Positions 26,075-52,889 of a stretch of 63,768 nt of DNA are shown one piece after another. Numbering within the stretch: the stretch's first letter is position 1; every line of letters begins with the position of its first letter. The notes below the pieces were generated by a model that saw only the letters and a list, made by a program, of their open reading frames with translations, was not told the DNA's origin and did not search any database. This DNA is from a virus (lineage: Duplodnaviria; Caudoviricetes), in IMG/VR virus record IMGVR_UViG_3300036398_002458, positions 1-63,768 of that record. One strand, 5' to 3'. The position numbers were made by a program, and so were the translations under genes.

Positions 26075-26089
26075 GTCTAACGGTTAGAT
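26075..26089. repeat. Palindromic box variant GTCTAAC-G-GTTAGAT
   Basis: Compensatory change relative to ATCTAAG-G-CTTAGAT; same GCCCCGCC flank as the 39008 copy; abuts the polymerase stop codon. Confidence 0.65.
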
Positions 26090-32840: not shown

Positions 32841-32855
32841 ATCTAAGGCTTAGAA
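32841..32855. repeat. Palindromic box (ATCTAAGGCTTAGAA, 14/15)
   Basis: Contains the TAA stop of 32850-33044. Confidence 0.9.
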
Positions 32856-33044
32856 GAGTTCAAGTTGACGGTCGTCCGGGTGCGGACGTGGGGCTTGCGG
32901 ATCGCGCTTGGCTTGCGCGTGTTGAAACTCGTCGATGTCCCGAAGGCGCATCTCCAGTCGCTCTCCCACGGCACGTGCCAGGGCGTCGCCCTTCAGGTAC
33001 ACCATGTTCAGCAACTCCTCATCACTTAGGTTCTCGTATCTCAT
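32850..33044 (-). CDS. Hypothetical protein, 64 aa
   Basis: Coupled ORF ending QLELF. Confidence 0.7.
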   Translation of the reverse strand: MRYENLSDEELLNMVYLKGDALARAVGERLEMRLRDIDEFQHAQAKRDPQAPRPHPDDRQLELF

Positions 33045-33442
33045 TTGCGCGGGTCCTCTAGGTCAATGAATGTGGTTAGGTGATGGTTCTTGTCGGTACG
33101 GAACCACAGGATCTCGTCCGGTGGCGGCTCGTTGGTCTTGCGTAGATGGCCGGATATCTTCGCCACCACGAGGATTGGCACAAGCCATACCGGCACGTTG
33201 TCTGTGTTTCCACGGTCAGTCCATTCGGTGCCGTCGTACCAACGCTTGATGAGATAGACATCCCCACGTCGCTCGTACCGGAACTCGTATTCGTCGTTTG
33301 TCATGTGGATTGATTTGTGTTGATGTCGGGCTCGTCGCAGTCCGTCGGCCCAGACAATCTCGTCTATCGATCGGTACCAGTCCTCATGGTCAGCAACCGT
33401 CTGCCTGATCTGCTCAAGCCAATACTGTTTGATCAGACCCAT
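33041..33442 (-). CDS. Hypothetical protein (start 33442 or 33304)
   Basis: ORF filling the operon; GGAG upstream of ATG 33442. Confidence 0.6.
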   Translation of the reverse strand: MGLIKQYWLEQIRQTVADHEDWYRSIDEIVWADGLRRARHQHKSIHMTNDEYEFRYERRGDVYLIKRWYDGTEWTDRGNTDNVPVWLVPILVVAKISGHLRKTNEPPPDEILWFRTDKNHHLTTFIDLEDPRK

Positions 33443-34331
33443 CGTCCACTCCCCAGTCGAATGCCGCCAGGATCGCGTCCACCTTCTGCTTGGTGGCCGC
33501 ACGGGTACCGTCGGACTCTCGCAAGTCCTTTGGTGTTACGCCAGACAGAACTTCCTCCAGACGACGCCGCGCCTTCTCCAGTGCAGGGTCGTTGGTGATG
33601 TTCATGTGCGTCAACAACTCGCACAACTCCACGGCGCCAGTGACCATGGTGTCGTGGAACTTGCGCTTCTTGCCGTCCTCTTCGATCACGAGCCGGTCGC
33701 TCAGGCGGGACAGCGCATCGTGCAGTCGAGTCCATGAGTCCTGCGCCGCCGCTTCCAACTGCTGCTCCATGCGCTTGTCGTACTGACGCATGAGATCGCG
33801 TTGCACTTCGCTCTCGATGTCGAGCCGGAAGTCGCCCGCCGTGGGCAGGGGAGAGAACGCAATGTCGAACCGGAACTTGCGCGCCACCTGCTCACGGGTG
33901 GGGTACTCATCACGATCAAAGAGCGTGCCCAACTGGAACGCGGCGGCGGCCACGAGCGTGTCGTACTTGTCGAGGAACGCCTCGACCAGACGGTTGAACT
34001 CAGCCTCATGCACATTCATCTCCGCCTTGTAGGACTGCAACAGGGCAGTGGGCAACAAGCGCGCGCCGTAGTCGTTCCAGGGCTTCGTGAGCCGGTAGTG
34101 GTCGGCACGGGCACGGGCTTGGTACTTGGTGATGGCGTCCAGTTCGGCACACTCTGCGAACAGAGACTTGTAGACAGACGCCGCCTTGGACGACTTCGCG
34201 CCCTTGGATTGCGTCACCTCGGCTTGCGTAGCCTTGTCCTGCTTGCGCCCCGAGTACAGGGAGATTTGCAGGTCCACGAGCATGGCCGCACGTGCCACGC
34301 CTGCTACGGGGTTGGTTTCGATGTAGTTCAT
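33414..34331 (-). CDS. DUF3150-like protein
   Basis: AMLVDLQISLYSGRKQD..TKPWNDYGARLLP..FDRDEYPT..GDFRLDI; linked to AAA and vWA genes. Confidence 0.6.
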   Translation of the reverse strand: MNYIETNPVAGVARAAMLVDLQISLYSGRKQDKATQAEVTQSKGAKSSKAASVYKSLFAECAELDAITKYQARARADHYRLTKPWNDYGARLLPTALLQSYKAEMNVHEAEFNRLVEAFLDKYDTLVAAAAFQLGTLFDRDEYPTREQVARKFRFDIAFSPLPTAGDFRLDIESEVQRDLMRQYDKRMEQQLEAAAQDSWTRLHDALSRLSDRLVIEEDGKKRKFHDTMVTGAVELCELLTHMNITNDPALEKARRRLEEVLSGVTPKDLRESDGTRAATKQKVDAILAAFDWGVDDGSDQTVLA

Positions 34332-34591
34332 TCTGATTTCTCCTGTTGCTTTTGAACGAATTTAATTGCTTCGACTTGCTCGTCGCTTACGACATTGATG
34401 GTCAGTTGCTCTAGCGGGTTGAATGGTTGGATGATTGGCAGGTAGTTGTTGCCGCTTCCAGTAGTCCCCTTGCCGTTGCCAATCCATTTGGTTTGCATGC
34501 TCTCGGCTTTGCACAGCAGCGTTGACAACGCTTCCAACTGCTCGTACGTCAGCAGCACCGTGTGGTCGCTGATCTCGACTTTGAATCTCAT
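34328..34591 (-). CDS. Hypothetical protein
   Basis: 87 aa, AGGAG RBS, coupled. Confidence 0.75.
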   Translation of the reverse strand: MRFKVEISDHTVLLTYEQLEALSTLLCKAESMQTKWIGNGKGTTGSGNNYLPIIQPFNPLEQLTINVVSDEQVEAIKFVQKQQEKSE

Positions 34592-35202
34592 ACGGTTTCT
34601 CCTTCGATTTCAAACTTCACTTCGTTGATCTCGCACGACTCTATGAAATACTCCTCGGACGAGATGTGGTCCCACTCCGACCGCAACGCGTCGAGCAGAA
34701 CGTCGGCTTTTTCTTGTGCGAACTCCCGCACCACTTCCTCGATGCGGGACTCTCGCCACTGGTCGTCTAGCAGTTCTTCCCAAGTCTCTTCGTCCAACTC
34801 GGAGAAGATTCCGCGCGGCGCCATGAAGCGGGTGTTTTCCTGAATGTCTACCTCCAGGGTCTTGTTCCGCCATCCAGTCAGATACACCCGTGCCCACGAG
34901 CGATCGTGCTCCACAGCGATGTACAAAGCCGGGTAGCGTTCGTCCAGCCCCTTGCGCTTCATGAAGGGAGCGAGGTGAAACGAGCCCTGCCAAGCGGCAT
35001 CAGCGTGGCCGTAGTCGATGCCCTCGAACTGGATGTCCGCCACCTGCACTCCCAACTCGTCCATCTGCTGTTTGAAGTCGTCCTCCACCGTGTCCCACCA
35101 CTCGGGGTGAAGGCAGTTGTCGAGGAAGCCCTGATGCTCTTTCTCAAACCGCTTTGGGTCTAGCGTCTTGAGTTCGTGGATGTCTACTTCGCGTGTAGTC
35201 AT
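34588..35202 (-). CDS. Acidic hypothetical protein, 204 aa
   Basis: About a quarter Asp/Glu; GGAG RBS immediately after a palindromic box. Confidence 0.8.
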   Translation of the reverse strand: MTTREVDIHELKTLDPKRFEKEHQGFLDNCLHPEWWDTVEDDFKQQMDELGVQVADIQFEGIDYGHADAAWQGSFHLAPFMKRKGLDERYPALYIAVEHDRSWARVYLTGWRNKTLEVDIQENTRFMAPRGIFSELDEETWEELLDDQWRESRIEEVVREFAQEKADVLLDALRSEWDHISSEEYFIESCEINEVKFEIEGETV

Positions 35203-35213
35203 TTCATTTCTCC

Positions 35214-35228
35214 ATCTAAGGCTTAGAT
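35214..35228. repeat. Palindromic box ATCTAAGGCTTAGAT
   Basis: Supplies ATC TAA, the last codon and stop of the vWA gene. Confidence 0.95.
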
Positions 35229-36407
35229 GTCCAGGTGAATCGTGGTGCCGAACGGCGCCACAAGGTTAGAAGTCACAGCCCACAGGGTTGGGATGGTGGT
35301 GCGTCCCCAGTCCCCGACATACCCGTCGGTGAACTGCACGATGGCCTGGGGAGCCAAACTTTTTTCTTTCAAGTAATCAAACAACACCGACCCGTCGGTG
35401 CCGCCGCCACCCTTGATCTTCAGGTCCTGCACGGCGAACTGACCATCCTCGAAAGTTTGATGCCCGGCCACCTCGGTGTCCCAATAGATCACGTGGACCT
35501 TGCCCGGCTTGACCTGTTCGATGATGGTGCGCAACTCCGAAACGAACCGCGTCATTTCATCGCCGCCGAAAACCGAGCCGGAGGTATCGAACCCGATCAC
35601 CAACTCGGTGATAGTGATGCCCTGCATGGACGGCATGTAGATGTCGTCGGCCAAGAACCTACGGTTGGGCTTGCGCCACGTGGACTCGTCGCGTCCCTGG
35701 CACATCTCTTGGATGAACTCACGCAACGCCTTGCGCCAGTCAACCTTGGGTGCAAGCAAGTCGCCGAAGATACCGTCGGCCATGCCCGCGCCCTTGCCTG
35801 CCAACTTCTGACGCAACATCTCGCCCTGGCGCACGGCACGTGCGATCTCCTGGGCTTGTGCTTCTGCGGCTTTCTTGGCCTCATCGCCACCGTCCCTGGC
35901 GTTCTCCCAGTCGTGCGTGTCGAGCCCGCCATCGCCGTCCCCATCGCCGCTCTCGCCCCCATCAGGCGGCGGGTTCTTCTTCAGGTCGTCGAAGATCTGA
36001 CGCACCGACCAGCCCCGGTACTTCTCGTCGGGCTTGATGCCGATCTTGGGCATGCGGATGAACCCCTCGCCCGCATCCATGTCCACGAGTGCGAGGTTGA
36101 CAAAGTAGTCGGCGGCTACGTTGGCAAGGTGCGGGTCCTCGTCGTGCAGGTCCTGCCACGTGTGCAGGTGGCGATACGCCTTGTGCGTGGCCTCGTGCAA
36201 CACCACGAAGCGCAACTCCGGGTCGGTCGGCATGTACTGCTTCATGAACTCGGGGTTGTACTTCACGTCCCAACCATTCGTGGCGGCGGTGGGCACCTCG
36301 TCGGTGACCTCGACCTTGCCGCATGCCAGGACCCCGGCATACACGCATGCCTTCTTGTGTTGCATGATGGCGATGTGCGCCTTGCGGATACGATCAATCG
36401 GTTCCAT
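35223..36407 (-). CDS. DUF2201-type metallopeptidase plus vWA domain protein
   Basis: PTAATNG, LHEATHK (HExxH), FDTSGS MIDAS, GGGGTD, FTDGY. Confidence 0.88.
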   Translation of the reverse strand: MEPIDRIRKAHIAIMQHKKACVYAGVLACGKVEVTDEVPTAATNGWDVKYNPEFMKQYMPTDPELRFVVLHEATHKAYRHLHTWQDLHDEDPHLANVAADYFVNLALVDMDAGEGFIRMPKIGIKPDEKYRGWSVRQIFDDLKKNPPPDGGESGDGDGDGGLDTHDWENARDGGDEAKKAAEAQAQEIARAVRQGEMLRQKLAGKGAGMADGIFGDLLAPKVDWRKALREFIQEMCQGRDESTWRKPNRRFLADDIYMPSMQGITITELVIGFDTSGSVFGGDEMTRFVSELRTIIEQVKPGKVHVIYWDTEVAGHQTFEDGQFAVQDLKIKGGGGTDGSVLFDYLKEKSLAPQAIVQFTDGYVGDWGRTTIPTLWAVTSNLVAPFGTTIHLDI

Positions 36408-36423
36408 GGTTTCTCCTGTTGTG

Positions 36424-36438
36424 ATCTAAGGCTTAGAT
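36424..36438. repeat. Palindromic box ATCTAAGGCTTAGAT
   Basis: Intergenic, 16 nt before the vWA start codon. Confidence 0.95.
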
Positions 36439-36445
36439 GTTGTGG

Positions 36446-36613
36446 CTACTTGATTCCCCTGCCTATGAAGGCAGTCTGGATACGGTGCGCATCACGGGAT
36501 TCGACGTGGTTCTTCATGGGTGGGGTGTATGCCTTGCTGATGCGAGCAGGGCTCCAGTCCTTGTGCAAGCGCACACGGCGCGTTCCGTTGCTGAGGTATT
36601 CGATGACTAGCAT
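36446..36613 (-). CDS. Small hypothetical protein, 55 aa
   Basis: MLVIEYLSNG..; fills the AAA-vWA gap; AAGGGG RBS. Confidence 0.55.
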   Translation of the reverse strand: MLVIEYLSNGTRRVRLHKDWSPARISKAYTPPMKNHVESRDAHRIQTAFIGRGIK

Positions 36614-36623
36614 GGCGGCCCCC

Positions 36624-37685
36624 TTAGAAATACTTGCCCAACTTAGCGGCGGCTGCGGTGAAGCGGCGGTTCTTGCACGCCATCGCCACCTTGGACTTGT
36701 TGCCCGCAAGTGAGGATACGAACAGCGAGTAGGCTTCGAACGACGTGATGCGTTCGGCGTACACCATGACTGCATCGAGATCGTCCTCGGTCACACGGTT
36801 GGCAAGCATGAAGGCCAGGATAAACATGGCACCCACGGCGTCCTCTTTCGGAACCTTGGTCTTGTGCGGATCCTTGACGATGTTCTCGTACAGGGGCAGG
36901 GAGTCAGCGAGGTTGACCAAAGCCACCATGAGTTGCGCCGCCGACTCGCCGATCGTGCCTGCTAAAGCCGGCAAAAATGCGTCCCCCAAAACAGACCTTT
37001 GTTTCACGATGTTCGATCCACGCTCCATGGAACGCGGTGAGCAGAAGGTCCGCGTGTTGCCAGTCAGGGGGTTGAAGATGTACGGGTTCTTCTCGTTGCG
37101 ACCCAGGTCGGTGTAGCACTGGAACACCTCGGGGTTTTGCTTGGCGAACGCCATCATCTCGGGGGCGATGTCGTTGTCCGCCGCCCAGTGCAACCACTCG
37201 TCAGCGGTGGGGTTGGCCACCACGAGTTCAGTCATGCGGTTGTAGGCATGCGCCGGGATGTTGTCGCCCACCCCGTCGGTGTCGAGGTTTGTGGTTGCGA
37301 TGACGATCGACCCGGTAGTCAGGCCACGGTCAGCGATGCGCTTCTCGTTGACGAGCGGCAACAGCATGTTCAGCACAGGGCGGGACGCCTTGCCCAACTC
37401 GTCAAGCATGATGAGCAGGGGGCGGTTGCTGCCGTTGGCAAGCCCGAAGCGGGCGTTCGGTGCGTAGTTGGTAACCATGGCTTCGCGGTCGATGACGGGC
37501 ATGCCCAGGTCACCGAGGTCAAGGTTAGCCACGTCGATATAGCAGGGGATGTAGTCCGGCAGTTCCTTGGCGAGCATGGTCAGGATCGCTGACTTGCCCA
37601 CACCGGGTTGGCCCCGCAGGATCACGGTGTTGGTGGTGCCGACGGCACGGATCACGGTAGCGGCTTGGTTCAGATTGACTTTCAT
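36624..37685 (-). CDS. AAA+ ATPase (MoxR/dynein-related type)
   Basis: GQPGVGKS Walker A, LIMLDE Walker B, IATTN sensor, SPRS motif. Confidence 0.9.
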   Translation of the reverse strand: MKVNLNQAATVIRAVGTTNTVILRGQPGVGKSAILTMLAKELPDYIPCYIDVANLDLGDLGMPVIDREAMVTNYAPNARFGLANGSNRPLLIMLDELGKASRPVLNMLLPLVNEKRIADRGLTTGSIVIATTNLDTDGVGDNIPAHAYNRMTELVVANPTADEWLHWAADNDIAPEMMAFAKQNPEVFQCYTDLGRNEKNPYIFNPLTGNTRTFCSPRSMERGSNIVKQRSVLGDAFLPALAGTIGESAAQLMVALVNLADSLPLYENIVKDPHKTKVPKEDAVGAMFILAFMLANRVTEDDLDAVMVYAERITSFEAYSLFVSSLAGNKSKVAMACKNRRFTAAAAKLGKYF

Positions 37686-37705
37686 GATGGGTTCCTATTG
37701 CGTTG

Positions 37706-37720
37706 ATCTAAGGCTTAGAT
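37706..37720. repeat. Palindromic box ATCTAAGGCTTAGAT
   Basis: Intergenic, 20 nt before the AAA start codon. Confidence 0.95.
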
Positions 37721-37759
37721 GTTGATGAGTGATTTTGCTTTGGTTGGCTTACGGATGGT

Positions 37760-38533
37760 TTACTTGGTCGGGGTGGGTGCGGTTACGGTCTCATACAGAT
37801 CCTCCTTGGCGGCTTTCATGATGGCGGTCCACGCTTGGCCTGCCGGGAGTTTGGTGTACTCGTAGGAGCGGCTTGCCCAGTTGAACCCGTGGGTGAACGC
37901 ATACCTGCGGATGATGCCCGGCCAGTTGTGGCTCCGGTCAGGGTTGGTGAGGATGTCGCGCAGTTGCGGGGCGATGCGCCCACCTGCGTTTTGCCACCCT
38001 ACGTCGTCGGACGTAGCGGCGGCATGCAGGAGTTTGAACACGTCCTTGAACCCGGACGCCTTGACTCCATCGTGCAGTTCCTTGGTTTCGCTCTTGTCGA
38101 TGCGCTTGGCTTCGAAGGGCTTGGGTTGAGAAAGTAACTCCCCGGACGATGAGAATGAAATTCCATCGTAGTACCGATACTCCTTGCCGTTGACGCTCAC
38201 GATCGGTTGGTTCTTGCTGAACTTGACGCCGTTGTAGACCGACACGCGAAGCCCGGCGTCGTGGAAGAAAGCACCAAACGCATCGTTCATGCAGATGCGG
38301 GTGGTCGGGGAGCGGAACCAGTTGTCGCAGTTGAGGACGAAGGAATCGTCGGGCTGCACGGTGATGACGTCGGTGTTGTGGAAGCGCACGGCCATGTTGC
38401 CCACGGCAGTCTCGCGCACCCTCTCGTGGTTGCGCCCACGGCGAGAGCCGTCGAGCGGCGCCGTGCCTTTGTGCTTGCCGCGCTTGTACATGTGGCGGGC
38501 TACGTGAAGTTGCATTGCGGTGTAGACAGTCAT
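37760..38533 (-). CDS. Hypothetical early protein, 257 aa
   Basis: GGAG RBS; AVRFHNTDVITV..WFRSPTT. Confidence 0.8.
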   Translation of the reverse strand: MTVYTAMQLHVARHMYKRGKHKGTAPLDGSRRGRNHERVRETAVGNMAVRFHNTDVITVQPDDSFVLNCDNWFRSPTTRICMNDAFGAFFHDAGLRVSVYNGVKFSKNQPIVSVNGKEYRYYDGISFSSSGELLSQPKPFEAKRIDKSETKELHDGVKASGFKDVFKLLHAAATSDDVGWQNAGGRIAPQLRDILTNPDRSHNWPGIIRRYAFTHGFNWASRSYEYTKLPAGQAWTAIMKAAKEDLYETVTAPTPTK

Positions 38534-38551
38534 TTGGTTTCTCCGGTTGTG

Positions 38552-38566
38552 ATCTAAGGCTTAGAT
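38552..38566. repeat. Palindromic box ATCTAAGGCTTAGAT
   Basis: Supplies ATC TAA of 38561-38767. Confidence 0.95.
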
Positions 38567-38767
38567 GGTTCGCTTGGGGTTGAGTTGGGACAGCAGTGCG
38601 GTGTCGGTGAAGAGCATGTAGTTGGACTTGTTGAGGGGCGCCACGCACCAGTGGCGGCGTTCCTCCTTGGCTTGTTCGTCGCCGCACTCCAGGCAGATGG
38701 GCTTGATGGCCGCCCGTTCGGGCGGGTCGATCTCATGGCCGCAGATGCGGCACTTGGGTATGGTCAT
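38561..38767 (-). CDS. Small Zn-finger protein (CxxC..CxxC)
   Basis: CRICG..ER..CLECG..APLNKSNY; GGAGG RBS. Confidence 0.75.
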   Translation of the reverse strand: MTIPKCRICGHEIDPPERAAIKPICLECGDEQAKEERRHWCVAPLNKSNYMLFTDTALLSQLNPKRTI

Positions 38768-38768
38768 T

Positions 38769-38981
38769 TCAGTCCTCCAGTTGGGTTATCACGGCGTCGA
38801 TCCGGGCCATCTGATCGGCCAACACCTTGGCCTTGAACGCGTACCAACCTTCGGGCAGGTCGGCGTCGCCGTAGCGGTCCTGCATGTACCCGTCGAGCGG
38901 TGTGCGTACGTTGCGCCATTCGCGCAGGATCGTGAGCAGGGTGTACGCCGTGTCCGGCGTCAGGTTCAGACTGGTTTTCAT
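38769..38981 (-). CDS. Hypothetical early protein, 70 aa
   Basis: GGAG RBS; first ORF after the long leader. Confidence 0.7.
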   Translation of the reverse strand: MKTSLNLTPDTAYTLLTILREWRNVRTPLDGYMQDRYGDADLPEGWYAFKAKVLADQMARIDAVITQLED

Positions 38982-39000
38982 GTGGTTTCTCCAGGTTGGG

Positions 39001-39029
39001 CCCCGCCATCTAAGGCTTAGATGACGGGG
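39001..39029. repeat. Palindromic box (39008-39022) with extended stem CCCCGCC..GACGGGG
   Basis: Seen directly. Confidence 0.95.
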
Positions 39030-39072
39030 GTTTGGGTTGTTAAGTGTTTGGTTAGATGTTTGGGTGTTGTTG

Positions 39073-39347
39073 AGTGCGATAGGACGTGTCAGCGTGGCAT
39101 CTCCCGCATCACTGCGGCTCCACGCTCAAGGGAACGTACCGGTTTCCCGGCATAGGTTCCCATCCATTTAGGCACTATGCGTCGGCTTTGCATCACGCTA
39201 TCCCCGTTCGGAGCCGGGCAGGGCTCACTACTCTACGGGTACACCACGGATGCACCGGACTGACTACCGGACGCCTTCTCGCGCAGGGAGGTTACTTGGA
39301 TGTACCGGGCGTCTCACGACGTGGACCGGGCTAGCCTATCTTTCACC
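39073..39347 (-). ncRNA. Candidate structured non-coding RNA, ~275-330 nt
   Basis: No credible ORF. Closing helix GATAGG/CCTATC, three GNRA-capped hairpins only on the minus strand, bracketed by two extended boxes and downstream of a near-consensus promoter. Confidence 0.55.
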
Positions 39348-39386
39348 TATGGCGCTTCTGCCATGTGGCAGCGGCGGTTTGTTTGC

Positions 39387-39413
39387 CCCGGCATCTAAGG
39401 CTTAGATGACGGG
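39387..39413. repeat. Palindromic box (39393-39407) with extended stem CCCGGC..GACGGG
   Basis: Near-identical to the 39001-39029 copy. Confidence 0.95.
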
Positions 39414-39426
39414 ACGGGTCAGCGGA

Positions 39427-39439
39427 TTGTTAAGGAGCG
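39427..39439 (-). promoter_or_regulatory. boxA-like antitermination motif CGCTCCTTAACAA
   Basis: One mismatch from GCTCTTTAACA; ~65 nt downstream of the early promoter. Confidence 0.45.
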
Positions 39440-39509
39440 CGGGTTGGCATGGGGTAGGGGAAATGGCAACCGCATCGGAGATCGCAGGGCGAAGTCCGAC
39501 TGAACCCTT

Positions 39510-39538
39510 ATTATGCCTGAAAGCGGGGCGTTTGTCAA
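39510..39538 (-). promoter_or_regulatory. Strong sigma70 early promoter TTGACA-N17-CATAAT
   Basis: Near-consensus hexamers with ideal spacing, pointing into the early operon. Confidence 0.8.
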
Positions 39539-39577
39539 GTCTCCAGAAAATGTTTTGGAGAGTGAGATTGGAGGGGG

Positions 39578-40021
39578 TTGTAACGGATGTAACGAAATTG
39601 GCGAGGTTGTAACGAAATTCGCGTAACAACACTAACCCTTAGGGGGACAATGAATGGCGTGGTAGTGGGGGCTTACTTCAGGGGCGAAAATGGGGGGTGC
39701 AACGGTGTAACGCGGTTTTAGAGAGAGAAAGCGAAAAAACAAGAATTTTCGCTCAAAAAACAAGTCACCAAGGGTTTACACCTACAAAATGAGCGAAATT
39801 TGGGAATCATATAAAAATCCGCGTTACAGCGTTACATCCTATCTATCTATCTATTATGTAGTGTAGTAACAACACAAACACCTGCTTTTTCCTACGGGTT
39901 GCTACCTACTTTTGCTACATTTTGCAGCAACTCGGGGTGTTTTCGTTCGGGTTAACCCGAGGGTTAGTGTTGTAACGCCGATTTCGTTACATCGAGGCAA
40001 ATTTCGTTACATCCGTTACAA
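39578..40021. other. Candidate replication origin: 62-bp inverted repeats carrying TGTAACG iterons around an AT-rich core
   Basis: 39578-39639 vs 39960-40021 (8 mismatches); inner IR ~39698-39720 vs ~39814-39836; about 10 TGTAACG/CGTTACA heptamers. Confidence 0.6.
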
Positions 40022-40181
40022 GGTCATCTAAGGCTTAGATGCGAAAGTGCTTGACGCCGCGCAAAAAAGCGCGCACACTACGTGTGCGCGGTCATCTAAG
40101 GCTTAGATGCCGCCCCTGCGTGATAGTGTCTAATCTTAGATGCGGCGGGGTCGGCCCGGCGATCTAAGATTAGATGCGGCG
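40022..40181. repeat. Cluster of four palindromic boxes (40026, 40094 perfect; 40128, 40162 14-bp variants)
   Basis: GGTCATCTAAGGCTTAGATGC is identical at 40022-40042 and 40090-40110; TTAGATGCGGCG at 40136 and 40170. Confidence 0.9.
40051..40079 (+). promoter_or_regulatory. Possible sigma70 promoter TTGACG-N17-CACACT between two boxes
   Basis: Correct spacing; no downstream ORF; -10 lies in hairpin CGCGCACAC-TAC-GTGTGCGCG. Confidence 0.4.
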
Positions 40182-40275
40182 CTTCGCGCGCCTGCTCCCC
40201 CACGCGCCCTCTCGCTCACGCGCCTTCGGACTACTATCACGCAAACGTAGCGCAGGCTACGTTTGCGTAGGCAAC

Positions 40276-40298
40276 AAAAAAGCCCGCCGAGGCGGGCT
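40276..40298 (-). terminator. Intrinsic terminator after 40329-40886
   Basis: Minus strand AGCCCGC-CTCG-GCGGGCT followed by a T run. Confidence 0.8.
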
Positions 40299-40328
40299 GT
40301 GGGGGCAAGGGGCCGAAGCCCCTGCTGA

Positions 40329-40886
40329 TCACTCTGCGGTTTCCTTGAACCCGTCCAGGGATTCGATCGCCACGTCCAAGACTTGCGCGGCGAACTCTGT
40401 CAGGCCGAGCATGCGGGCCTGGGCGATCGCCTTGGACAACGTTTTGTCCAGATCCTCGCGTGACGTGGACGTCACGGCGCCTGCCTTGCTCGCGCCACCC
40501 TTGCCCGCCTTGCCCCAGGGCAGGCCAAATTCCGGGCGATTCTTGATATCGGCGAACCATTCAACGCCGTGGTGCAAGGCGCGGGCGGCGCCCTGCGCAT
40601 ACTCTGTAACCGTGCTACGGTGCAACAGGCCGTCCGCAACAGCCCGGACAAACGCATCGGATTCCCGGATCGCCTTTTGCACGGCCTTGCAAGACTCTTG
40701 ATCCTTGCCGATGCCCGGGGCAACGCGCACCGCGTCAATGTATTGATTCATTGTGCGGGACAGTTGATCGGCAAAATTGGACGCGGCCTTGTCAAATTTC
40801 CCGTAGGATTTGACGATCGTCAGGGCAAATGGGTTGAAGGCCGGGGCGGTGACAGCGGGCTTCGTGGGGGTCTTGATAACTGACAT
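40329..40886 (-). CDS. Hypothetical monocistronic early protein, 185 aa
   Basis: AAGGA RBS before ATG 40886; own promoter and terminator. Confidence 0.8.
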   Translation of the reverse strand: MSVIKTPTKPAVTAPAFNPFALTIVKSYGKFDKAASNFADQLSRTMNQYIDAVRVAPGIGKDQESCKAVQKAIRESDAFVRAVADGLLHRSTVTEYAQGAARALHHGVEWFADIKNRPEFGLPWGKAGKGGASKAGAVTSTSREDLDKTLSKAIAQARMLGLTEFAAQVLDVAIESLDGFKETAE

Positions 40887-40948
40887 GGTGATTTCCTTTG
40901 ATTGACGTTGATTGAATTGCCGATCGCGTGTCGCAATCGACAAGGCCG

Positions 40949-40977
40949 ATTGTGCATGGGTTCGCATGGGTTGTCAA
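40949..40977 (-). promoter_or_regulatory. Sigma70 promoter TTGACA-N17-CACAAT
   Basis: Perfect -35, 17-bp spacer, upstream of the 40886 start. Confidence 0.7.
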
Positions 40978-40989
40978 GTGTTTAGTTAG

Positions 40990-41004
40990 ATCTAAGGGTT
41001 AGAT
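40990..41004. repeat. Palindromic box variant ATCTAAGGGTTAGAT
   Basis: 12 bp upstream of the 40977 -35 element. Confidence 0.8.
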
Positions 41005-41269: not shown

Positions 41270-41845
41270 ATGTTCGTACCGTCAATCGATTTTGATACCC
41301 CCCTTGCGGACTTCTCGCCGACGTTTGAGTCGCTTGAAGATCGAGTAACCGCCGCCCTCCAATCCTTGATGGATGTGGGGCACTTGCCGACTCCGACGGA
41401 GCAAGACCGCAAAATCGGTCGGGCAGCCCTGATGGGCAACTCGGTATCCGAGGAAGAACTCTCCAGGCCGGAAGTAATCGTTCACATCGCGGCCATGCTG
41501 GACGAGTACGACAAGACGGTCGTGAAATCTGCCCAGCAGATGCGGACCTACGTCACGAACAAACTGATCCTGGAGACCGAGAACCCCGACCCCCGGATCC
41601 GCCTGAAATCCCTGGAACTGCTGGGCAAGATCTCCGACGTGGGACTGTTCACGGACAAGACCGAAATCACGCTGCGCCACCGTCCGACCGAAGAGTTGGA
41701 GCAGATGCTGCGCGAAAGGCTGACGCAGGTCATCGAAAACGAGGTGTTCGAGCCCCGTGCCGACGCCAAAACCCCTGCCAAACTAGACCTGTCAGAGATT
41801 ACGGACGTGGAATCCCGCGAAGAAGCGGATGAAAATTCCCTCTAG
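41270..41845 (+). CDS. Putative terminase small subunit
   Basis: Immediately upstream of and overlapping TerL; RIRLKSLELLGKISDVGLF motif. Confidence 0.6.
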   Translation: MFVPSIDFDTPLADFSPTFESLEDRVTAALQSLMDVGHLPTPTEQDRKIGRAALMGNSVSEEELSRPEVIVHIAAMLDEYDKTVVKSAQQMRTYVTNKLILETENPDPRIRLKSLELLGKISDVGLFTDKTEITLRHRPTEELEQMLRERLTQVIENEVFEPRADAKTPAKLDLSEITDVESREEADENSL

Positions 41846-43355
41846 TTTTACCCCTGCCATGCTTGACCGCTTGGTCAAGTCGCTGCCGCCCGACGAGGCC
41901 GTCGAGTTGCTGGCCATGTTTGATGAGTTGGAAGAACGCAGGCGCATGACCCTGTGCCAGAACGACTTTCTGGCGTTCATCGGGGCGCTGGACCCCAAGT
42001 ACAAGTTCGGTTTGCACCTCAAACGCCTGGGCGGACTGCTCATGGACGTGGAAAAGGGGTACAAAGACCGGATCGCGGTGTCAATGGCACCCCGTATGGG
42101 TAAGTCGCAGATGATTTCCATCTACTACCCGGCTTGGTATCTGGGGCGAAACCCCGACCACAAGGTGATTGTGGCGTCGCACACGGCGGATTTGGCCGTC
42201 GTGATGGCCCGCAAGGTGCGAAACCTGATGCAGACGCCGGAATACCAGAAGGTTTTCCCCAAAACGCAGATTGCGTCGGACGCCAAGGCCGCTGGCCAGT
42301 GGAATACGACCGCCGGAGGCGAGTATTTCGCCATCGGTGTGGGCGGTGCACTGGCCGGACGGGGTGCTCACCTCATCATTGCCGACGATCCGCACTCAGA
42401 ACAGGACCTGAAATCGTCGAATTTCACGTCTTTGGACGCTACATACGAGTGGTTTACGGCGGGCCTGCGTACTCGTCTGATGCCCGAGGGCAAGATCTGC
42501 GTGTTGCACACGCGGTGGCACCTGCGGGATCTCATTGGACGGCTGACCAAAGACTCGGCCATGAACGAAGACGGCGACAAGTACGAAGTCTTCGAGTTCC
42601 CCGCGATTCTGAACGAGAACACCGAGGAAGAGAAGTCAATTTGGCCCGAACAGTGGGCACTTGAGGCGTTGCAGAAGACCCGGGCGTCCATGCACCACAT
42701 CATGTGGCAGTGGTACGCGCAATACCAGCAGAATCCGACGGCCTCTGAGGCTGCCATCATCAAGCGGGATTGGATCCAGTGGTGGAAAGAGCGCGATCCG
42801 CCCGAAATTGACTTTATCGTGCAGGCGTACGACACGGCCCTGACCACCAAGGAGCGATCGGACTTCACCGTGTGCCAAACCTGGGGCGTTTTCAAGGACC
42901 TCAAGGGCGTGGACAACGTGATCCTGCTCAATTCTGTGCGCGACAAGTACGAATTCCCCGAACTCAAGGTCATGGCGCTCGAACAGGCCAAGGAATGGGA
43001 GCCGGACTCGGTAATCGTGGAAGCCAAGGCGTCTGGCCAGCCGCTGATCGACGAAATGCGCAGATCTGGGATATTTGTGCAGGACTTCAGCCCCGGGAAA
43101 GGGCAAGACAAGATTGCGCGCCTGAACGCCGTGGCCGATATGTTCGCCTCCGGGCAGGTTTGGTTCCCCGAAACGTCATGGGCATCCACGGTAGTTGAAG
43201 AGATACTGGCTTTCCCTGCCGGAGAGCACGACGACACGGTAGACGCGTGCACGCTCGCATTGATGCGGGTCCGCAAAGGTGGGATGATGCGACTGGTTAC
43301 GGATCAGGCCGACAACGAGCCTTTGTACCGGTCGCGCCGTTCGGCGTATTACTGA
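41829..43355 (+). CDS. terL: Terminase large subunit
   Basis: APRMGKS Walker A, LIIADDP Walker B, TRWH, YQQNP, AYDTA and HDDTVDA nuclease motifs. Confidence 0.95.
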   Translation: MKIPSSFTPAMLDRLVKSLPPDEAVELLAMFDELEERRRMTLCQNDFLAFIGALDPKYKFGLHLKRLGGLLMDVEKGYKDRIAVSMAPRMGKSQMISIYYPAWYLGRNPDHKVIVASHTADLAVVMARKVRNLMQTPEYQKVFPKTQIASDAKAAGQWNTTAGGEYFAIGVGGALAGRGAHLIIADDPHSEQDLKSSNFTSLDATYEWFTAGLRTRLMPEGKICVLHTRWHLRDLIGRLTKDSAMNEDGDKYEVFEFPAILNENTEEEKSIWPEQWALEALQKTRASMHHIMWQWYAQYQQNPTASEAAIIKRDWIQWWKERDPPEIDFIVQAYDTALTTKERSDFTVCQTWGVFKDLKGVDNVILLNSVRDKYEFPELKVMALEQAKEWEPDSVIVEAKASGQPLIDEMRRSGIFVQDFSPGKGQDKIARLNAVADMFASGQVWFPETSWASTVVEEILAFPAGEHDDTVDACTLALMRVRKGGMMRLVTDQADNEPLYRSRRSAYY

Positions 43356-43367
43356 TGAGGATTTGAG

Positions 43368-45887
43368 ATGGCAACCAATTCCATGATGCCTTCGGTTTAT
43401 TCCGCCCCACAGGGTTTGGAAACGCTGGCCGAAGATCTACCTGTAATCGAAATCGAGGTTGAAGACCCGGAATCTTTGAAGATCGCCATGGGCGGCGTCG
43501 AGATCGAACTGGAGCCCGAAAGCGAAACCGGCGACGAAGCGTTTGACGCCAACCTTGCCGAGTACATGGACGAGAACGAACTCCAGAAGGTCGCCTCCGA
43601 TCTGATGGGCGAAGTGGACGGCGACATCAACTCCCGCAAAGACTGGGTGGAGATGTTCGTCAAGGGGCTCGAAGTCCTGGGCATGAAGTACGAGGAGCGC
43701 ACCGAGCCGTGGAACGGCGCGTGTGGCGTGTACTCCACGATCCTGACCGAAGCCGCAGTGCGCTTTCAGTCCGAGACGATCATCGAGACTTTCCCCTCCG
43801 TCGGGCCCGTCAAGACCGAAATCGTCGGTGCAATCGACAAACTCAAGGAAGAAGCAGCCGAGCGCGTGCGCGACGACATGAACTACCAGTTGACGGAGGT
43901 CATGTCCGAATACCGCCCCGAGCATGAACGCATGCTGTTCAACCTGGGCTTGGCAGGTTCGGCGTTCAAGAAGGTGTACTTCGACCCCAGCCTGGGTCGG
44001 CAGGTCTCGATCTTCGTCCCGGCAGAAGACGTCATCATTCCCTACGGTGCTACCAGCGCCATGGAAGCGCAGCGGGTCACGCACCTCATGCGCAAGACCA
44101 AGAACGACATCAGGAAACTCCAAGTCGAGGGGTTCTACCGCGACGTTGACCTGGGCGACCCGGTTCAGATCCACACGGACGTGGAGAAAAAGAAAGCCGA
44201 GGATCAGGGCTACAGCCTGACGGATGACGACCGGTACCAGATCGCAGAGATTCAGGTCGATTACGACCTGCCGGGATACGAGGACAAGGACGGTATCGCG
44301 CTGCCCTACATCATCACCATCGACCGGGGCACTTCCAAGGTCCTGGCCATCCGTCGCAACTGGCAGCCTGACGACGAGAAGAGACTCAAGCGTCAGCACT
44401 TCGTACAGTACACCTACATCCCAGGGTTTGGCGCTTATGGCTTCGGCTTCATACACCTCATTGGTGGATACGCTCGTGCTGGTACTTCTCTCATCCGGCA
44501 GTTGGTTGATGCCGGTACTCTCAGCAATCTTCCGGGCGGTCTGAAATCGCGCGGCTTGCGCGTCAAGGGCGACGACACGCCCATCGCCCCGGGTGAGTTC
44601 CGCGACGTGGACATCCCGTCTGGTGCGCTGCGCGACAACATCATGCCGCTGCCGTACAAGGAGCCGTCACAGGTCCTGGCAGCACTGCTTGAGCGGATCA
44701 CCGAAGAAGGCCGCCGTCTGGGCTCCATCGCGGACATGAAGGTCAGCGACATGTCGGCCCAAGCCCCGGTGGGCACGACGCTGGCCCTGTTGGAGCGGCA
44801 ACTCAAGACCATGAGCGCGGTGCAGGCACGTGTGCACTTCGCCATGAAGCAGGAGTTCAAACTCCTCAAGGCCATCATCCGCGACTACACCCCGTCGGCG
44901 TATTCCTACGACCCGGAGAAGGGCAGCCGCCGCGCCAAGCAAGAGGACTACGACATGGTGGAGGTTATCCCCGTGTCGGACCCCAACAGCAGCACGATGG
45001 CGCAGCGGATCATGCAGTACCAAGCGGTCATTCAGTTGGCTGCGCAGGCTCCGCAGATCTACGACCTGCCCCAGTTGCATCGGCAGATGATCGAGGTCCT
45101 GGGCGTGAAGAACGCCGAGAAGTTGGTGCCAATCGAAGACGACATGACCCCGCGCGACCCGCTGTCGGAGAACATGGCGTTCCTCAACGGCAAGCCGGTC
45201 AAGGCGTTTATCTACCAAGATCACGACGCCCACATCGCCACCCACATGGCGCTGATGCAAGACCCGCTGATGGCGCAGCAGATCGGCCAGAACCCGATGG
45301 CTCAGCAGATGATGTCGTCCATCCAGGCGCACATCATGGAGCACTTGTCCTTCGCCTACCGGGCCAAGGTCGAGGAGCAACTGGGCGTGCCGCTGCCCCC
45401 GCCCAACGAGCAGTTGCCCGAGGAAGTCGAGGTCAACCTCTCGCGCATCATCGCGCAGGCTGCACAGCAGTTGTTGGCCAAGGACAAGGCTCAGGCTTCG
45501 CAACAGCAGGCGCAGGAGATGCAGCAGGATCCGCTGATCCAGATGCAGCAGAAAGAACTCCAGATCAAGGCCCAAGAAGCCCAGATCAAAGCGCAGAAGG
45601 TCATGGGCGACTTGCAGGTCAAGCAGCAGGAACTGGCGCTCAAGGCCCAGGAAGCGGCGGCTCGCAGCGGAGAAGATCCGCAACTCAAGGCCATGGCGCA
45701 GCAAATGGAGATGCAGATGCGGCAGCAGTCGCACAATCAGAACCTCCAGCAAAGCGCCCAGACGCATCAGCAAAAGATGGCCCAAGCCGCCCAGACGGCT
45801 GAGCAGCAGGCCAAGATCCGGGCCTTCAACGCCGCCACGGCTGCGATGAACAAGGCCAACCAACCCAAGAAGGAGAAGCCTGAGTGA
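43368..45887 (+). CDS. Portal protein
   Basis: 839 aa after TerL; GSAFKKVYFD, GFGAYGFG, PVGTTLALLE; Gln-rich C-terminal coil. Confidence 0.88.
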   Translation: MATNSMMPSVYSAPQGLETLAEDLPVIEIEVEDPESLKIAMGGVEIELEPESETGDEAFDANLAEYMDENELQKVASDLMGEVDGDINSRKDWVEMFVKGLEVLGMKYEERTEPWNGACGVYSTILTEAAVRFQSETIIETFPSVGPVKTEIVGAIDKLKEEAAERVRDDMNYQLTEVMSEYRPEHERMLFNLGLAGSAFKKVYFDPSLGRQVSIFVPAEDVIIPYGATSAMEAQRVTHLMRKTKNDIRKLQVEGFYRDVDLGDPVQIHTDVEKKKAEDQGYSLTDDDRYQIAEIQVDYDLPGYEDKDGIALPYIITIDRGTSKVLAIRRNWQPDDEKRLKRQHFVQYTYIPGFGAYGFGFIHLIGGYARAGTSLIRQLVDAGTLSNLPGGLKSRGLRVKGDDTPIAPGEFRDVDIPSGALRDNIMPLPYKEPSQVLAALLERITEEGRRLGSIADMKVSDMSAQAPVGTTLALLERQLKTMSAVQARVHFAMKQEFKLLKAIIRDYTPSAYSYDPEKGSRRAKQEDYDMVEVIPVSDPNSSTMAQRIMQYQAVIQLAAQAPQIYDLPQLHRQMIEVLGVKNAEKLVPIEDDMTPRDPLSENMAFLNGKPVKAFIYQDHDAHIATHMALMQDPLMAQQIGQNPMAQQMMSSIQAHIMEHLSFAYRAKVEEQLGVPLPPPNEQLPEEVEVNLSRIIAQAAQQLLAKDKAQASQQQAQEMQQDPLIQMQQKELQIKAQEAQIKAQKVMGDLQVKQQELALKAQEAAARSGEDPQLKAMAQQMEMQMRQQSHNQNLQQSAQTHQQKMAQAAQTAEQQAKIRAFNAATAAMNKANQPKKEKPE

Positions 45888-47215: not shown

Positions 47216-47225
47216 GGAGTAGACC

Positions 47226-48179: not shown

Positions 48180-48181
48180 TC

Positions 48182-48634: not shown

Positions 48635-48653
48635 ACCCTGTTAGGAGTCACAA

Positions 48654-49529: not shown

Positions 49530-49542
49530 GGAGTAATTCAAA

Positions 49543-52888: not shown

Positions 52889-52889
52889 C

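What the first reader, a model, noticed from the sequence alone, without database searches (positions are those of the whole stretch)
32841..41004. Oriented 15-bp palindrome ATCTAAG-G-CTTAGAT punctuates the early region into gene cassettes
Seen: copies at 32841 (14/15), 35214, 36424, 37706, 38552, 39008, 39393, 40026 and 40094, with variants at 40128, 40162, 40990 and 26075; none noticed in the late arm. Six lie 10-26 nt before a start codon, just 5' of the RBS, and three supply the upstream gene's TAA stop. Despite the symmetry, every 15-bp copy has G as the central base on the plus strand, and the 26075 copy has a compensatory change. Three inferences compete. (a) Stoperator-like sites as in mycobacteriophage L5, read by a phage HTH protein. 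(b) RNA hairpins (AUCUAA-GCC-UUAGAU) that process or gate the early transcript into single units. (c) Recombination joints for gene shuffling like T4-type PeSL cassettes; the half-sites are one base from the integron RYYYAAC/GTTRRRY cores and the 26075 copy matches both, but no recombinase is encoded. This is the best candidate for an undescribed system here.
Basis: partly seen in the sequence, partly recalled or inferred. Interest (0 to 1): 0.9.

Follow-up and report, generated by a model that had tools for sequence, protein, structure and literature searches.

The report
Private palindromic operators in phage early genes
An uncultured lake phage marks the junctions of its early genes with 13 copies of one short DNA palindrome, each of its many relatives uses its own version of that word, and the likely reader is a small phage protein of unknown fold, so this is a testable new variant of the known "many operators, one regulator" phage circuit.

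Summary
There are 13 boxes of the form NTCTAA-(2-3 nt)-TTAGAN between 26075 and 41004 and none elsewhere in this complete 63.8-kb phage genome; chance expects 0.01.

The genes here lie on the minus strand, and six boxes abut their ribosome-binding sites.

- **Family pattern.** About 80 related phage contigs carry a box at the same junctions but with genome-specific arms such as TTCTAA, TTATAA, TTTTAA and TCTTAA. Two near-identical phages differ by the same symmetric base pair at 6 of 6 junctions compared.
- **Symmetry.** Spacers vary, and across the family they occur in both orientations. The uniform orientation in this window is lineage-specific.
- **DNA, not RNA.** Most hairpins would be very weak, 0 to -2 kcal/mol. 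One box sits just upstream of the promoter of a 185-aa gene in 23 of 24 loci, outside that transcript.
- **Candidate reader.** That protein, p185, tracks box class best: AUC 0.83 against 0.61 for the ATPase. It is predicted to be a symmetric homodimer and has no known fold.

Best reading: symmetric DNA operators for a co-evolving phage regulator, working like stoperators. RNA punctuation and recombination joints are less likely.

This scan has reported similar palindrome arrays in other phages.

The parts
26075..26089 (.). Box variant GTCTAA-CGG-TTAGAT between the stop of the DNA polymerase gene and the exonuclease gene
   Evidence: Distant relatives carry the exact consensus 15-mer at this place. 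An isolated box 6-10 kb downstream of the main cluster also occurs in 5 of 5 complete relatives.
32841..32855 (.). Box with one mismatch, abutting the GGAG and the start at 32830 of a 174-aa gene
35214..35228 (.). Exact box. It holds the TAA stop of the vWA/metallopeptidase gene and lies 11 nt before the start at 35202.
36424..36438 (.). Exact box, 16 nt before the start of the vWA/metallopeptidase gene (36407)
37706..37720 (.). Exact box, 20 nt before the start of the MoxR-like ATPase gene (37685)
38552..38566 (.). Exact box. It holds the TAA stop of a 68-aa gene and lies 18 nt before the start at 38533.
39008..39022 (.). Exact box at the tip of a GC-extended hairpin (-21 kcal/mol as RNA), 26 nt before the start at 38981. 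It forms the 3' border of an ORF-free stretch.
39393..39407 (.). Exact box at the tip of a GC-extended hairpin (-16.5 kcal/mol), about 100 nt downstream of early promoter P1
   Evidence: A box lies 41-150 nt downstream of 39 of 100 strong promoters in relatives.
40026..40040 (.). Exact box next to the right arm of the origin-like inverted repeat
40094..40108 (.). Exact box, directly upstream on the minus strand of a terminator-like hairpin (40090-40070)
40128..40141 (.). 14-bp box with a 2-nt spacer (GTCTAA-TC-TTAGAT)
   Evidence: The 2-nt spacer is the commonest form among relatives.
40162..40175 (.). 14-bp box with a 2-nt spacer in the opposite spacer orientation (ATCTAA-GA-TTAGAT)
40990..41004 (.). 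Box with spacer GGG, 12 nt upstream of the -35 hexamer of promoter P2 and so outside the P2 transcript
   Evidence: The same arrangement occurs in 23 of 24 distinct related loci.
40329..40886 (-). p185, the candidate box-reading protein. It is 185 aa, all-helical, and predicted to be a homodimer.
40949..40977 (-). P2, a sigma-70-like promoter (TTGACA-17-CACAAT) for p185
39510..39538 (-). P1, a sigma-70-like promoter (TTGACA-17-CATAAT) for the leftward early arm
40281..40298 (-). Intrinsic-terminator-like hairpin plus T run after p185

Best explanation
The boxes are double-stranded DNA operators for a two-fold symmetric, phage-encoded regulator.

**What is read.** Each half of the dimer reads one 6-bp arm. 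The inner TAA/TTA is common to nearly all relatives, and the outer three bases are private to each phage. The 2-4 bp spacer is not read.

**Who reads it.** The most likely reader is the 185-aa protein encoded at 40329-40886 (p185). It has its own strong sigma-70 promoter and its own terminator, and a box lies just upstream of that promoter.

**Inferred course of events.**
1. Host RNA polymerase starts at P1 and P2 on infection.
2. p185 accumulates and occupies the box at its own promoter (autoregulation) and the 12 boxes along the early arm.
3. There it blocks or slows elongating polymerase in front of successive genes, so early and replication genes are shut down together and in a graded way.

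**Shown here.**
- The sites, their confinement to the early arm, and their symmetry.
- Their concerted change between relatives.
- The conserved box-promoter-p185 layout.
- The statistical link between p185 and box class.

**Inferred, not shown.** That p185 binds DNA, and that binding represses.
For: **1. Not chance, and confined to one sector.**
- The window has 13 boxes in 15 kb and none in the other 48.8 kb.
- In 5 of 5 complete relatives all 11-17 boxes lie in one sector of 14-23 kb.
- G001 has 13 boxes, all within its first 16.4 of 34.8 kb.

**2. A trans factor reads the sequence.** Nearly every one of 80 related loci has its own arm sequence, repeated 5-19 times. L072 and L075 have ATPases 97% identical. 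At 6 of 6 orthologous junctions compared they differ by the same symmetric pair of substitutions, with identical flanks.

**3. The site is symmetric.** Of 690 boxes, 228 have palindromic spacers, and both orientations occur on one strand. In some genomes the spacer sequence varies freely, for example L086 and L091.

**4. The level is DNA.**
- A box lies upstream of the p185 gene in 23 of 24 distinct loci, and an exact TTGACA follows within 30 nt in 20 of them, so that copy is upstream of the promoter.
- The same layout holds in three further complete genomes with divergent p185.
- Gene-junction boxes fold weakly as RNA: -1.4 to -2 kcal/mol in 4 of 6 flanked cases in the window, and 0 for a TTATAA box.

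**5. p185 is the best candidate.**
- Among 18 protein families, p185 identity best predicts a shared box class: AUC 0.83 against 0.61 for the ATPase on the same 435 pairs. The next best is 0.76 against 0.65.
- On 34 shared loci the box class needs 11 changes on the p185 tree, against 14 (ATPase), 14 (p257) and 13 (vWA, 32 rows); the least possible is 7.
- The two p185 N-terminal types match arm type in 38 of 38 loci. G008, with GTCTAA arms, has the predicted type.
- Homodimer prediction: ipSAE 0.82, best of 3 controls 0.00; that mark was reached by 20 of 30 proteins solved as pairs and 1 of 23 solved as single chains; runs share at least 76% of contacts; partner pLDDT at least 80.
- The columns most tied to box class include residues 94, 95 and 98 on one face of helix 90-106. 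These three are not in the predicted dimer interface.
Against: **p185 is not shown to bind DNA.**
- It has no Pfam, NCBIfam or PHROG hit and no fold match. The best Foldseek E-value is 1.2 and the best VIA Z is 5.6, which is in the noise for helical proteins.
- The nearest named Atlas clusters (DUF3102 at 0.82, Streptomyces phage repressor c at 0.80) are below the level that counts.

**The covariation has weak spots.**
- It is confounded by shared descent. The type-versus-arm match rests on only 1-2 independent changes, with sign test p = 1.
- L057 and L066/L069 share a class but have only 48-49% identical p185.
- G009 has RY-type arms with a third, divergent p185 type, and complete genome G012 gave no p185 match at E <= 0.001.

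**Some features are not explained by an operator alone.**
- The ribosome-binding site starts 0-6 nt after the box in about 170 of 690 boxes, against about 20 in the reverse-direction control. Compaction of intergenic space is only a guess.
- The window's own boxes are 12:1 oriented.
- Two boxes sit in strong hairpins whose flanks differ from a close relative by G-U-compatible changes, which points to RNA at those two sites.

**Open points.** The sign of regulation, repression or activation, is untested. No RNA data exist.
Confidence: 0.55

Rival explanations
1. RNA-level punctuation. The box acts in the early transcript as a small hairpin or a site for an RNA-binding protein next to each ribosome-binding site. 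It would gate translation or direct processing of the polycistronic RNA into units, including release of the ORF-free stretch 39023-39392.
For: - The box and the ribosome-binding site are tightly coupled on the coding strand only.
- The window's boxes are 12:1 oriented.
- The boxes at 39008 and 39393 are tips of -21 and -16.5 kcal/mol hairpins that bracket an ORF-free stretch. Their flanks differ from L010 by changes that keep G-U pairing.
- A box lies about 100 nt into the transcript of 39 of 100 strong promoters in relatives.
- Symmetric arm changes also keep base pairing.
Against: - Stems are A-U rich. They fold at 0 to -2 kcal/mol in most cases, and TTATAA and TTTTAA types cannot form a stable stem.
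- The arms are invariant and the loop varies, which is the reverse of most known protein-hairpin recognition (established knowledge, recalled).
- Loops of 2 nt are impossible, so the register would have to change between relatives.
- The conserved copy upstream of the p185 promoter is not in that transcript.
- Both spacer orientations, and fully palindromic spacers, are common across the family.
Confidence: 0.17
2. The boxes are DNA operators, but the reader is not p185. It would be another phage protein outside the loci compared, or a host factor. p185 would then be merely one of the regulated genes that evolves fast.
For: - p185 has no recognisable DNA-binding fold.
- Only plus-strand ORF families within about 10 kb of the ATPase gene were tested, so genes elsewhere in the 64-kb genomes were not.
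- G012 has boxes but gave no p185 profile match.
Against: - p185 is the only one of 18 families with a clear gain over the phylogenetic baseline.
- Its gene is the one constantly preceded by a box-flanked promoter.
- It is predicted to be a symmetric dimer.
- The recognisable HTH candidates do not fit. The 174-aa family scores AUC 0.72 against a 0.71 baseline. The XRE-sigma-4 protein occurs in only 4 of 80 loci.
- A host factor would not explain different arms in phages that are 97% identical in neighbouring genes.
Confidence: 0.15
3. Recombination joints. The boxes are crossover points that shuffle box-plus-gene cassettes between co-infecting relatives, in the manner of PeSL or integron cassettes.
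For: - Accessory genes inserted between conserved genes carry their own box, for example between the ATPase and vWA genes in L034.
- 4 of 48 indels have both ends within 30 nt of a box, and 20 more have one end there.
- In Cluster O mycobacteriophages, deletions by recombination between such repeats are described (PMC4351075, passages read).
Against: - No tyrosine or serine recombinase is found in six frames.
- 24 of 48 indels have no end at a box.
- The box-free stretch 28-32 kb is as mosaic as the boxed part, and the loss of gene 34588-35202 in L010 and L015 runs from start codon to start codon.
- None of the 7 joints seen in contigs of 4 runs has either end within 30 nt of a box.
- Exchange would homogenise boxes between phages, whereas each lineage keeps a private word.
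Confidence: 0.05
4. Phage-specific promoters. The boxes would be read by a phage RNA polymerase or a sigma-like factor.
For: - Many copies lie in front of genes.
- The phage encodes a protein with RpoD region 4.
- Hairpin-type promoters are known for the phage N4 virion polymerase (recalled).
Against: - Symmetric co-variation and both orientations are not expected of a promoter.
- The ribosome-binding site starts 0-6 nt after the box, leaving no room for a start site that keeps it.
- No T7-type polymerase matched, though the control genomes did not ring either, so this is weak.
- The large virion proteins show no polymerase domain.
- The sigma-4 protein is in only 4 of 80 loci.
Confidence: 0.04

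Closest known systems
Stoperators and operators of Cluster A mycobacteriophages (L5, Bxb1), bound by the immunity repressor
   Same: - Many copies of one short site lie in short intergenic gaps of transcribed regions, and some lie at promoters.
- The motif differs between related phages and correlates with the repressor.
- The proposed action is a block to elongation.

Sources: PMC6550527, passages read; PMC9283540, abstract; PMC4557955, passages.
   Different: - Stoperators are asymmetric 13-bp sites bound by a monomer and oriented with transcription. The sites here are two-fold symmetric, and orientation is not a family property.
- Cluster A phages are temperate. Here no integrase, resolvase or ParB was found, and there are no prophage copies in 185,579 species genomes.
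- Sites here are confined to one early sector of 14-23 kb.
- The candidate reader has no known fold.
Conserved inverted repeats of Streptomyces phage phiC31, bound by the repressor c proteins
   Same: - There are multiple dispersed repressor sites (18-30 for phiC31 and L5 together; PMC4557955, passage).
- From memory: they are symmetric inverted repeats in intergenic regions of the early genes, and one is the operator of the repressor's own promoter. That is the layout seen here.
   Different: - phiC31 is temperate.
- Its sites and repressor are unrelated in sequence as far as tested. The only link is an Atlas feature score of 0.80 to a 'repressor c' cluster, which is below the level that counts.
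- Details of the repeats are recalled; the primary papers are not held.
17-bp palindromic repeat of Cluster O mycobacteriophages (Corndog)
   Same: - The anatomy is very close: 7-bp inverted arms, a 3-bp spacer read in either orientation, and more than 30 copies.
- Many copies are in short intergenic gaps of one long operon.
- The authors suggest a dimeric regulator, and deletions between repeats are seen.

Source: PMC4351075, passages read.
   Different: - In Cluster O about a third of the copies are inside genes, copies lie throughout the genome, and they are not linked to translation starts.
- Here copies are confined to the early sector, and many abut the ribosome-binding site.
KorB and its OB operators on IncP plasmid RK2
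   Same: - One short palindrome with a free central base sits at about a dozen places.
- Some copies lie directly upstream of a -35 hexamer and others far from promoters.
- It acts as a global repressor.

   Different: No ParB N-terminal domain is found in six frames, and p185 is much smaller. This is an analogy only.

Membership tests
Cluster A stoperator system | Many copies of one short site in intergenic gaps of transcribed regions, plus operator copies at promoters | tested here: met
   There are 13 copies. Seven lie at minus-strand gene junctions and one next to promoter P2.
Cluster A stoperator system | Asymmetric site, bound by a monomer, oriented with transcription (PMC6550527, PMC4557955) | tested here: not met
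   The arms are inverted repeats. Of 690 boxes in the family, 228 are perfect palindromes, and both spacer orientations occur on one strand.
Cluster A stoperator system | The site motif co-varies with the cognate repressor between relatives | tested here: met
   p185 scores AUC 0.83 against a 0.61 baseline. Box class needs 11 changes on the p185 tree against 13-14 on other trees. The protein's DNA binding itself is not shown.
Cluster A stoperator system | Temperate phage with an immunity repressor of the gp71 family | tested here: not met
   No integrase, resolvase or ParB N-terminal domain was found. The only 2 relatives in genome contigs are short MAG contigs. p185 has no family hit. I did not compare gp71 itself.
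Integron attC / cassette recombination site | A tyrosine recombinase (IntI) encoded nearby | tested here: not met
   PF00589 gave 0 matches in six frames of the whole genome, while the control rang in 14 of 14 genomes.
Integron attC / cassette recombination site | Imperfect long palindrome (tens of bases) with paired inner and outer cores and unpaired bases | tested here: not met
   The two 'cores' are only 1-3 nt apart in a site of 14-15 bp. The attC anatomy is recalled.
T4-type PeSL cassette (early promoter plus stem-loop) | A sigma-70 early promoter in each unit | tested here: not met
   Only two sigma-70-like promoters were found in 25.5-41.5 kb, neither at a gene-junction box. This was a simple consensus scan.
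Intrinsic terminator | G+C-rich stem followed by a T run | tested here: not met
   The scan lists terminator-like sites at 40298-40281 and 40090-40070 but none at a box. Box stems are A-T rich.
Symmetric multi-copy phage operators (phiC31 inverted repeats, Cluster O repeat) | Inverted arms with an unread spacer, many intergenic copies, and one copy at the regulator's own promoter | tested here: met

The most novel reading that the evidence does not exclude
The private arm sequences form an 'operator code' by which virulent phages of one family tell self from kin. On this reading p185 made by the first phage in a cell would shut down the early arm of any co-infecting relative that uses the same word. 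Lineages would then escape by changing reader and all operators together, which would explain the fast, concerted and symmetric turnover between phages that are otherwise 90-97% identical. It would be superinfection immunity without lysogeny, carried by a DNA-binding fold not yet described.
Probability: 0.2. Interest if true: 0.75.

Novelty: new variant of a known kind. Interest (0 to 1): 0.55.

Why it matters

Here the same logic appears in a large family of apparently virulent freshwater phages. At least 130 contigs in IMG/VR encode the marker ATPase. The family supplies a natural mutagenesis series: the same junctions, the same flanks, and different arms.

It also supplies a named candidate reader of no known fold. 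That makes three questions directly testable with a gel shift and a reporter:
- How a regulator and a dozen sites change specificity together.
- Whether that change is driven by competition between phages.
- Which residues read which bases.

The family could also give sets of orthogonal repressor-operator pairs.

Tried and rejected
**Searches that found nothing useful**
- Rfam (gathering thresholds) and ARAGORN found nothing in the window.
- Megablast of 32-42 kb against cultured phages found nothing.
- p185 fold and family searches all gave nothing usable: Foldseek against PDB, VIA wide, a profile against PDB sequences, Pfam, NCBIfam and PHROGs, and the ESM Atlas, whose named clusters scored only 0.80-0.82.

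**Other candidate readers**
- The XRE-sigma-4 protein was rejected because it occurs in only 4 of 80 loci.
- The 174-aa and 135-aa winged-helix-like proteins have only sub-threshold Pfam hits. The 174-aa family shows no covariation gain.

**A cultured proxy**
- Rhizobium phage RHph_TM3_14A shares the gene order and has 34 copies of TTACC-N5-6-GGTAA. These are spread over the whole genome and fold into stable hairpins, and no p185 profile hit was found at E <= 10. It is therefore not a safe stand-in.

**Sequencing runs**
- No RNA holder is listed. All 22 good holders are lake-water DNA runs kept as contigs, so transcript ends could not be examined.
- Laying contigs of 4 runs showed intact boxes and 7 joints. 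No joint has either end within 30 nt of a box, and most have short sides of 21-43 nt at 85% likeness. Contigs drop rare variants, so this is weak.

**Other limits**
- The independent-pairs test of p185 type against arm type had no power, with only 1-2 pairs.
- The T7-type RNA polymerase search is uninformative because its controls did not ring.
- The phiC31 genome paper is not held.
Those of PMC6550527 may hold stoperator counts and orientations that bear on the comparison.

**Limits of my own counts**
- Gene calls are crude, based on the longest ORF and third-position GC.
- Only plus-strand ORFs of the loci entered the family analysis.
- Loci with fewer than 5 boxes were dropped (14 of 80), and near-identical loci were collapsed (66 to 56) before the AUC.
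- The box class of L057 rests on 5 mixed boxes.

Full report
**What the window is**

It is a complete 63,768-bp virus record from IMG/VR, rated 100% complete by CheckV, with about 59% G+C.
- Plus-strand genes at 41270-57637 encode terminase, portal and major head protein.
- A minus-strand arm from about 39000 down to 18869 encodes a MoxR-like ATPase, a vWA/metallopeptidase protein, a DUF3150 protein, a protein with RpoD region 4, DNA polymerase A, an exonuclease, a helicase and a primase.
- The nearest cultured phages are Rhizobium phages of the RHph_TM3_14A type and Pseudomonas phage KPP25 and its kin, at only 33-35% identity in the polymerase.
- The phage DNA is held by 22 lake-water metagenome runs.

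**The observation**

The 15-mer has 8 exact and 2 one-mismatch copies, against 0.01 expected. A generic pattern of 6-nt arms and a 2-3 nt spacer gives 13 sites between 26075 and 41004 and none in the remaining 48.8 kb.

Read on the coding (minus) strand:
- Six boxes lie 10-26 nt before start codons and directly before the GGAG.
- Two supply the TAA of a credible upstream gene.
- Four form a cluster between the terminator of a small gene and an origin-like inverted repeat.
- One lies about 100 nt into the transcript of the strong early promoter P1.
- One lies 12 nt upstream of the -35 hexamer of a second strong promoter, P2.

P1 and P2 are the only sigma-70-like promoters found in 25.5-41.5 kb by a simple consensus scan.

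**Relatives**

The exact 15-mer occurs in 20 IMG/VR stretches. Twelve of them are relatives of this phage and eight are unrelated single hits.

Searching with the ATPase, first alone and then as a profile, gave 80 loci out of 130 confirmed candidates, from a family of phages of about 61-68 kb. Nearly every locus has a box at the same kind of place but with its own arms. These include ATCTAA, GTCTAA, TTCTAA, AACTAA, TTTTAA, TCTTAA, TTATAA and ATGTAA. Spacers are 2, 3 or 4 nt, and there are 5-19 copies per 10-21 kb.

The inner TAA/TTA is almost invariant. The outer three bases are private to each phage.

In 5 of 5 complete relatives all 11-17 boxes lie in one sector of 14-23 kb, with one outlier 6-10 kb further down, as in the window.

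**Concerted, symmetric change**

L072 and L075 have ATPases 97% identical. At all 6 orthologous junctions I aligned, out of about 13 boxes each, one phage has TTCTAA..TTAGAA and the other TTATAA..TTATAA. The flanks, including the ribosome-binding site, are the same.

A sequence that is identical within a genome and differs between genomes in both arms at once is read by something that changes with it, and it is read symmetrically.

**DNA or RNA**

Evidence for DNA:
- The arms are invariant and the spacer is free. L086, L091 and L101 each have several spacer sequences.
- Of 690 boxes, 228 have a palindromic spacer. The rest split 271 to 156 between the two orientations on the coding strand, and some genomes show the reverse bias.
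- Most boxes fold at 0 to -2 kcal/mol as RNA.
- In 23 of 24 distinct loci one box lies upstream of the p185 gene, and an exact TTGACA follows within 30 nt in 20 of them, so that copy is outside the transcript. Three further complete genomes show the same layout.

Evidence for RNA:
- The ribosome-binding site begins 0-6 nt after the box far more often than in the reverse-direction control, about 170 against about 20 of 690.
- The window's own copies are oriented 12:1.
- The two boxes that bracket the ORF-free stretch 39023-39392 are tips of strong hairpins of -21 and -16.5 kcal/mol. Their flanks differ from L010 in ways that keep G-U pairs.

I read the first set as decisive for the family and the second as showing that some copies have an added RNA role.

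I called plus-strand ORFs in all loci (2,648 proteins), clustered them, and asked which family's pairwise identity best predicts a shared box class.
- The 185-aa protein encoded at 40329-40886 stands out. Its start is the ATG at 40886, not the longer ORF. It scores AUC 0.83 against 0.61 for the ATPase on the same 435 pairs.
- Sixteen of the other 17 families are at or near their baselines. One family that follows p185 in many relatives, and is absent here, reaches 0.76 against 0.65.
- In pairs with ATPases at least 88% identical but different boxes, p185 is usually only 40-65% identical. The exception is L057, whose class rests on 5 mixed boxes.
- On 34 shared loci the class needs 11 changes on the p185 tree, against 14, 14 and 13 on the ATPase, p257 and vWA trees.
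- p185 has two N-terminal types that match arm type in 38 of 38 loci. This rests on only 1-2 independent changes, so it has no statistical weight.
- A prediction made from the arms held for G008 (type I). G009 has a third type, G011 only a weak match, and complete genome G012 none.

Properties of p185:
- It is confidently modelled as all-helical, with pLDDT 88.8 and pTM 0.57.
- It has no fold or family match and is mildly basic, with a family median pI of 8.6.
- It is predicted to form a symmetric homodimer: ipSAE 0.82; best of 3 controls 0.00; mark reached by 20 of 30 proteins solved as pairs and 1 of 23 solved as single chains; at least 76% shared contacts; pLDDT at least 80. My own alignment was used, so these counts hold only roughly.
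- The alignment columns most tied to box class include residues 94, 95 and 98 on one face of helix 90-106, outside the predicted interface. This is suggestive only, because it is confounded by descent.

**Lifestyle**

No integrase, resolvase or ParB N-terminal domain is found in six frames, and none appears among the roughly 45 ORFs scanned. Among one genome for each of 185,579 species, only two relatives turned up, both on short MAG contigs. So I take the family to be virulent, and the circuit to be a timer or a competition device rather than lysogenic immunity.

**Recombination**
- The loss of gene 34588-35202 in L010 and L015 runs from start codon to start codon and keeps the box.
- Of 48 distinct indels between relatives, 4 have both ends at boxes, 20 have one end and 24 have none.
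- None of the 7 joints seen in contigs of 4 runs has an end at a box.

Boxes may now and then serve as crossover points, as described for Cluster O (PMC4351075). That looks like a by-product.

**Comparison with what is known**

The logic matches three known systems:
- Stoperators of Cluster A mycobacteriophages (PMC6550527; PMC9283540, abstract).
- The dispersed repressor sites of phiC31 (PMC4557955; details recalled).
- In anatomy, the 17-bp palindrome of Cluster O, whose function is unknown (PMC4351075).

It differs in four ways:
- The sites are symmetric.
- They are confined to the early sector.
- They are often fused to the ribosome-binding site.
- The phages look virulent, and the candidate reader has no known fold.

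My literature searches found no description of this family's boxes. This scan has reported similar palindrome arrays in other phages: 37 notes hold the search words, and follow-up reports on other genomes reach a similar reading. One note on a relative mentions a palindrome before the ATPase and vWA genes.

**Verdict**

The boxes are most likely symmetric DNA operators of a co-evolving phage regulator, probably p185 (0.55). RNA punctuation (0.17), another reader (0.15), recombination joints (0.05) and promoters (0.04) follow.

It is a new variant of a known kind. Its interest is moderate to good because the family offers a ready-made specificity series and a testable protein.

Noticed in passing
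It occurs in only 4 of 80 related loci. Both early promoters have a perfect TTGACA, so a region-4 mimic could compete at them.
   Followed up: partly
window 39023-39392: An ORF-free stretch of about 370 nt is the first thing transcribed from P1. It is bracketed by two boxes that sit at the tips of strong hairpins (-16.5 and -21 kcal/mol). It has no Rfam match and is only partly conserved in L030 (84-87% over pieces of 50-105 nt).
   Followed up: partly
window 39578-40021: Long inverted repeats with GTAACG-type iterons surround an A+T-rich core between P1 and the four-box cluster. This is an origin candidate, and its right arm abuts a box.
   Followed up: no
window 34588-35202 (-): This 204-aa gene is missing from close relatives L010 and L015. 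The deletion runs from its start codon to the next gene's start codon, and the upstream box then serves the next gene.
   Followed up: yes
window 50508-51473 (+): A GIY-YIG-type homing endonuclease gene lies directly after the major head protein gene.
   Followed up: no
window 12542-18661 (+): A 2039-aa virion-module protein has an LPD38 'large polyvalent protein' domain and a weak metalloprotease hit. No RNA polymerase signature was found.
   Followed up: partly
L109 and L118 (Rhizobium phage RHph_TM3_14A, MN988472.1): There are 34 copies of TTACC-N5-6-GGTAA (13 exact copies of GTTACC-N5-6-GGTAAC in the 40.9-kb part scanned) at gene borders over the whole genome. Two that were folded gave stable hairpins of -8 to -11 kcal/mol. 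No p185 relative was found.
   Followed up: partly
L041-L079 and other loci, just downstream of the p185 gene: A 150-280 aa gene family (f19) follows p185 in many relatives and is absent from the window. It has the second-best link to box class, AUC 0.76 against 0.65.
   Followed up: no
L058 / G009:350-865 and L100 / G011:30897-31196: Divergent p185-like genes keep the box-TTGACA promoter layout although their N-terminal domains fit neither main type.
   Followed up: partly
window 36624-37685, 35223-36407, 33414-34331 (-): The MoxR ATPase, vWA/metallopeptidase and DUF3150 trio is the conserved backbone of the early arm in essentially all relatives (found in 77, 74 and 63 of 80 loci). Its role in infection is unknown.
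   Followed up: no
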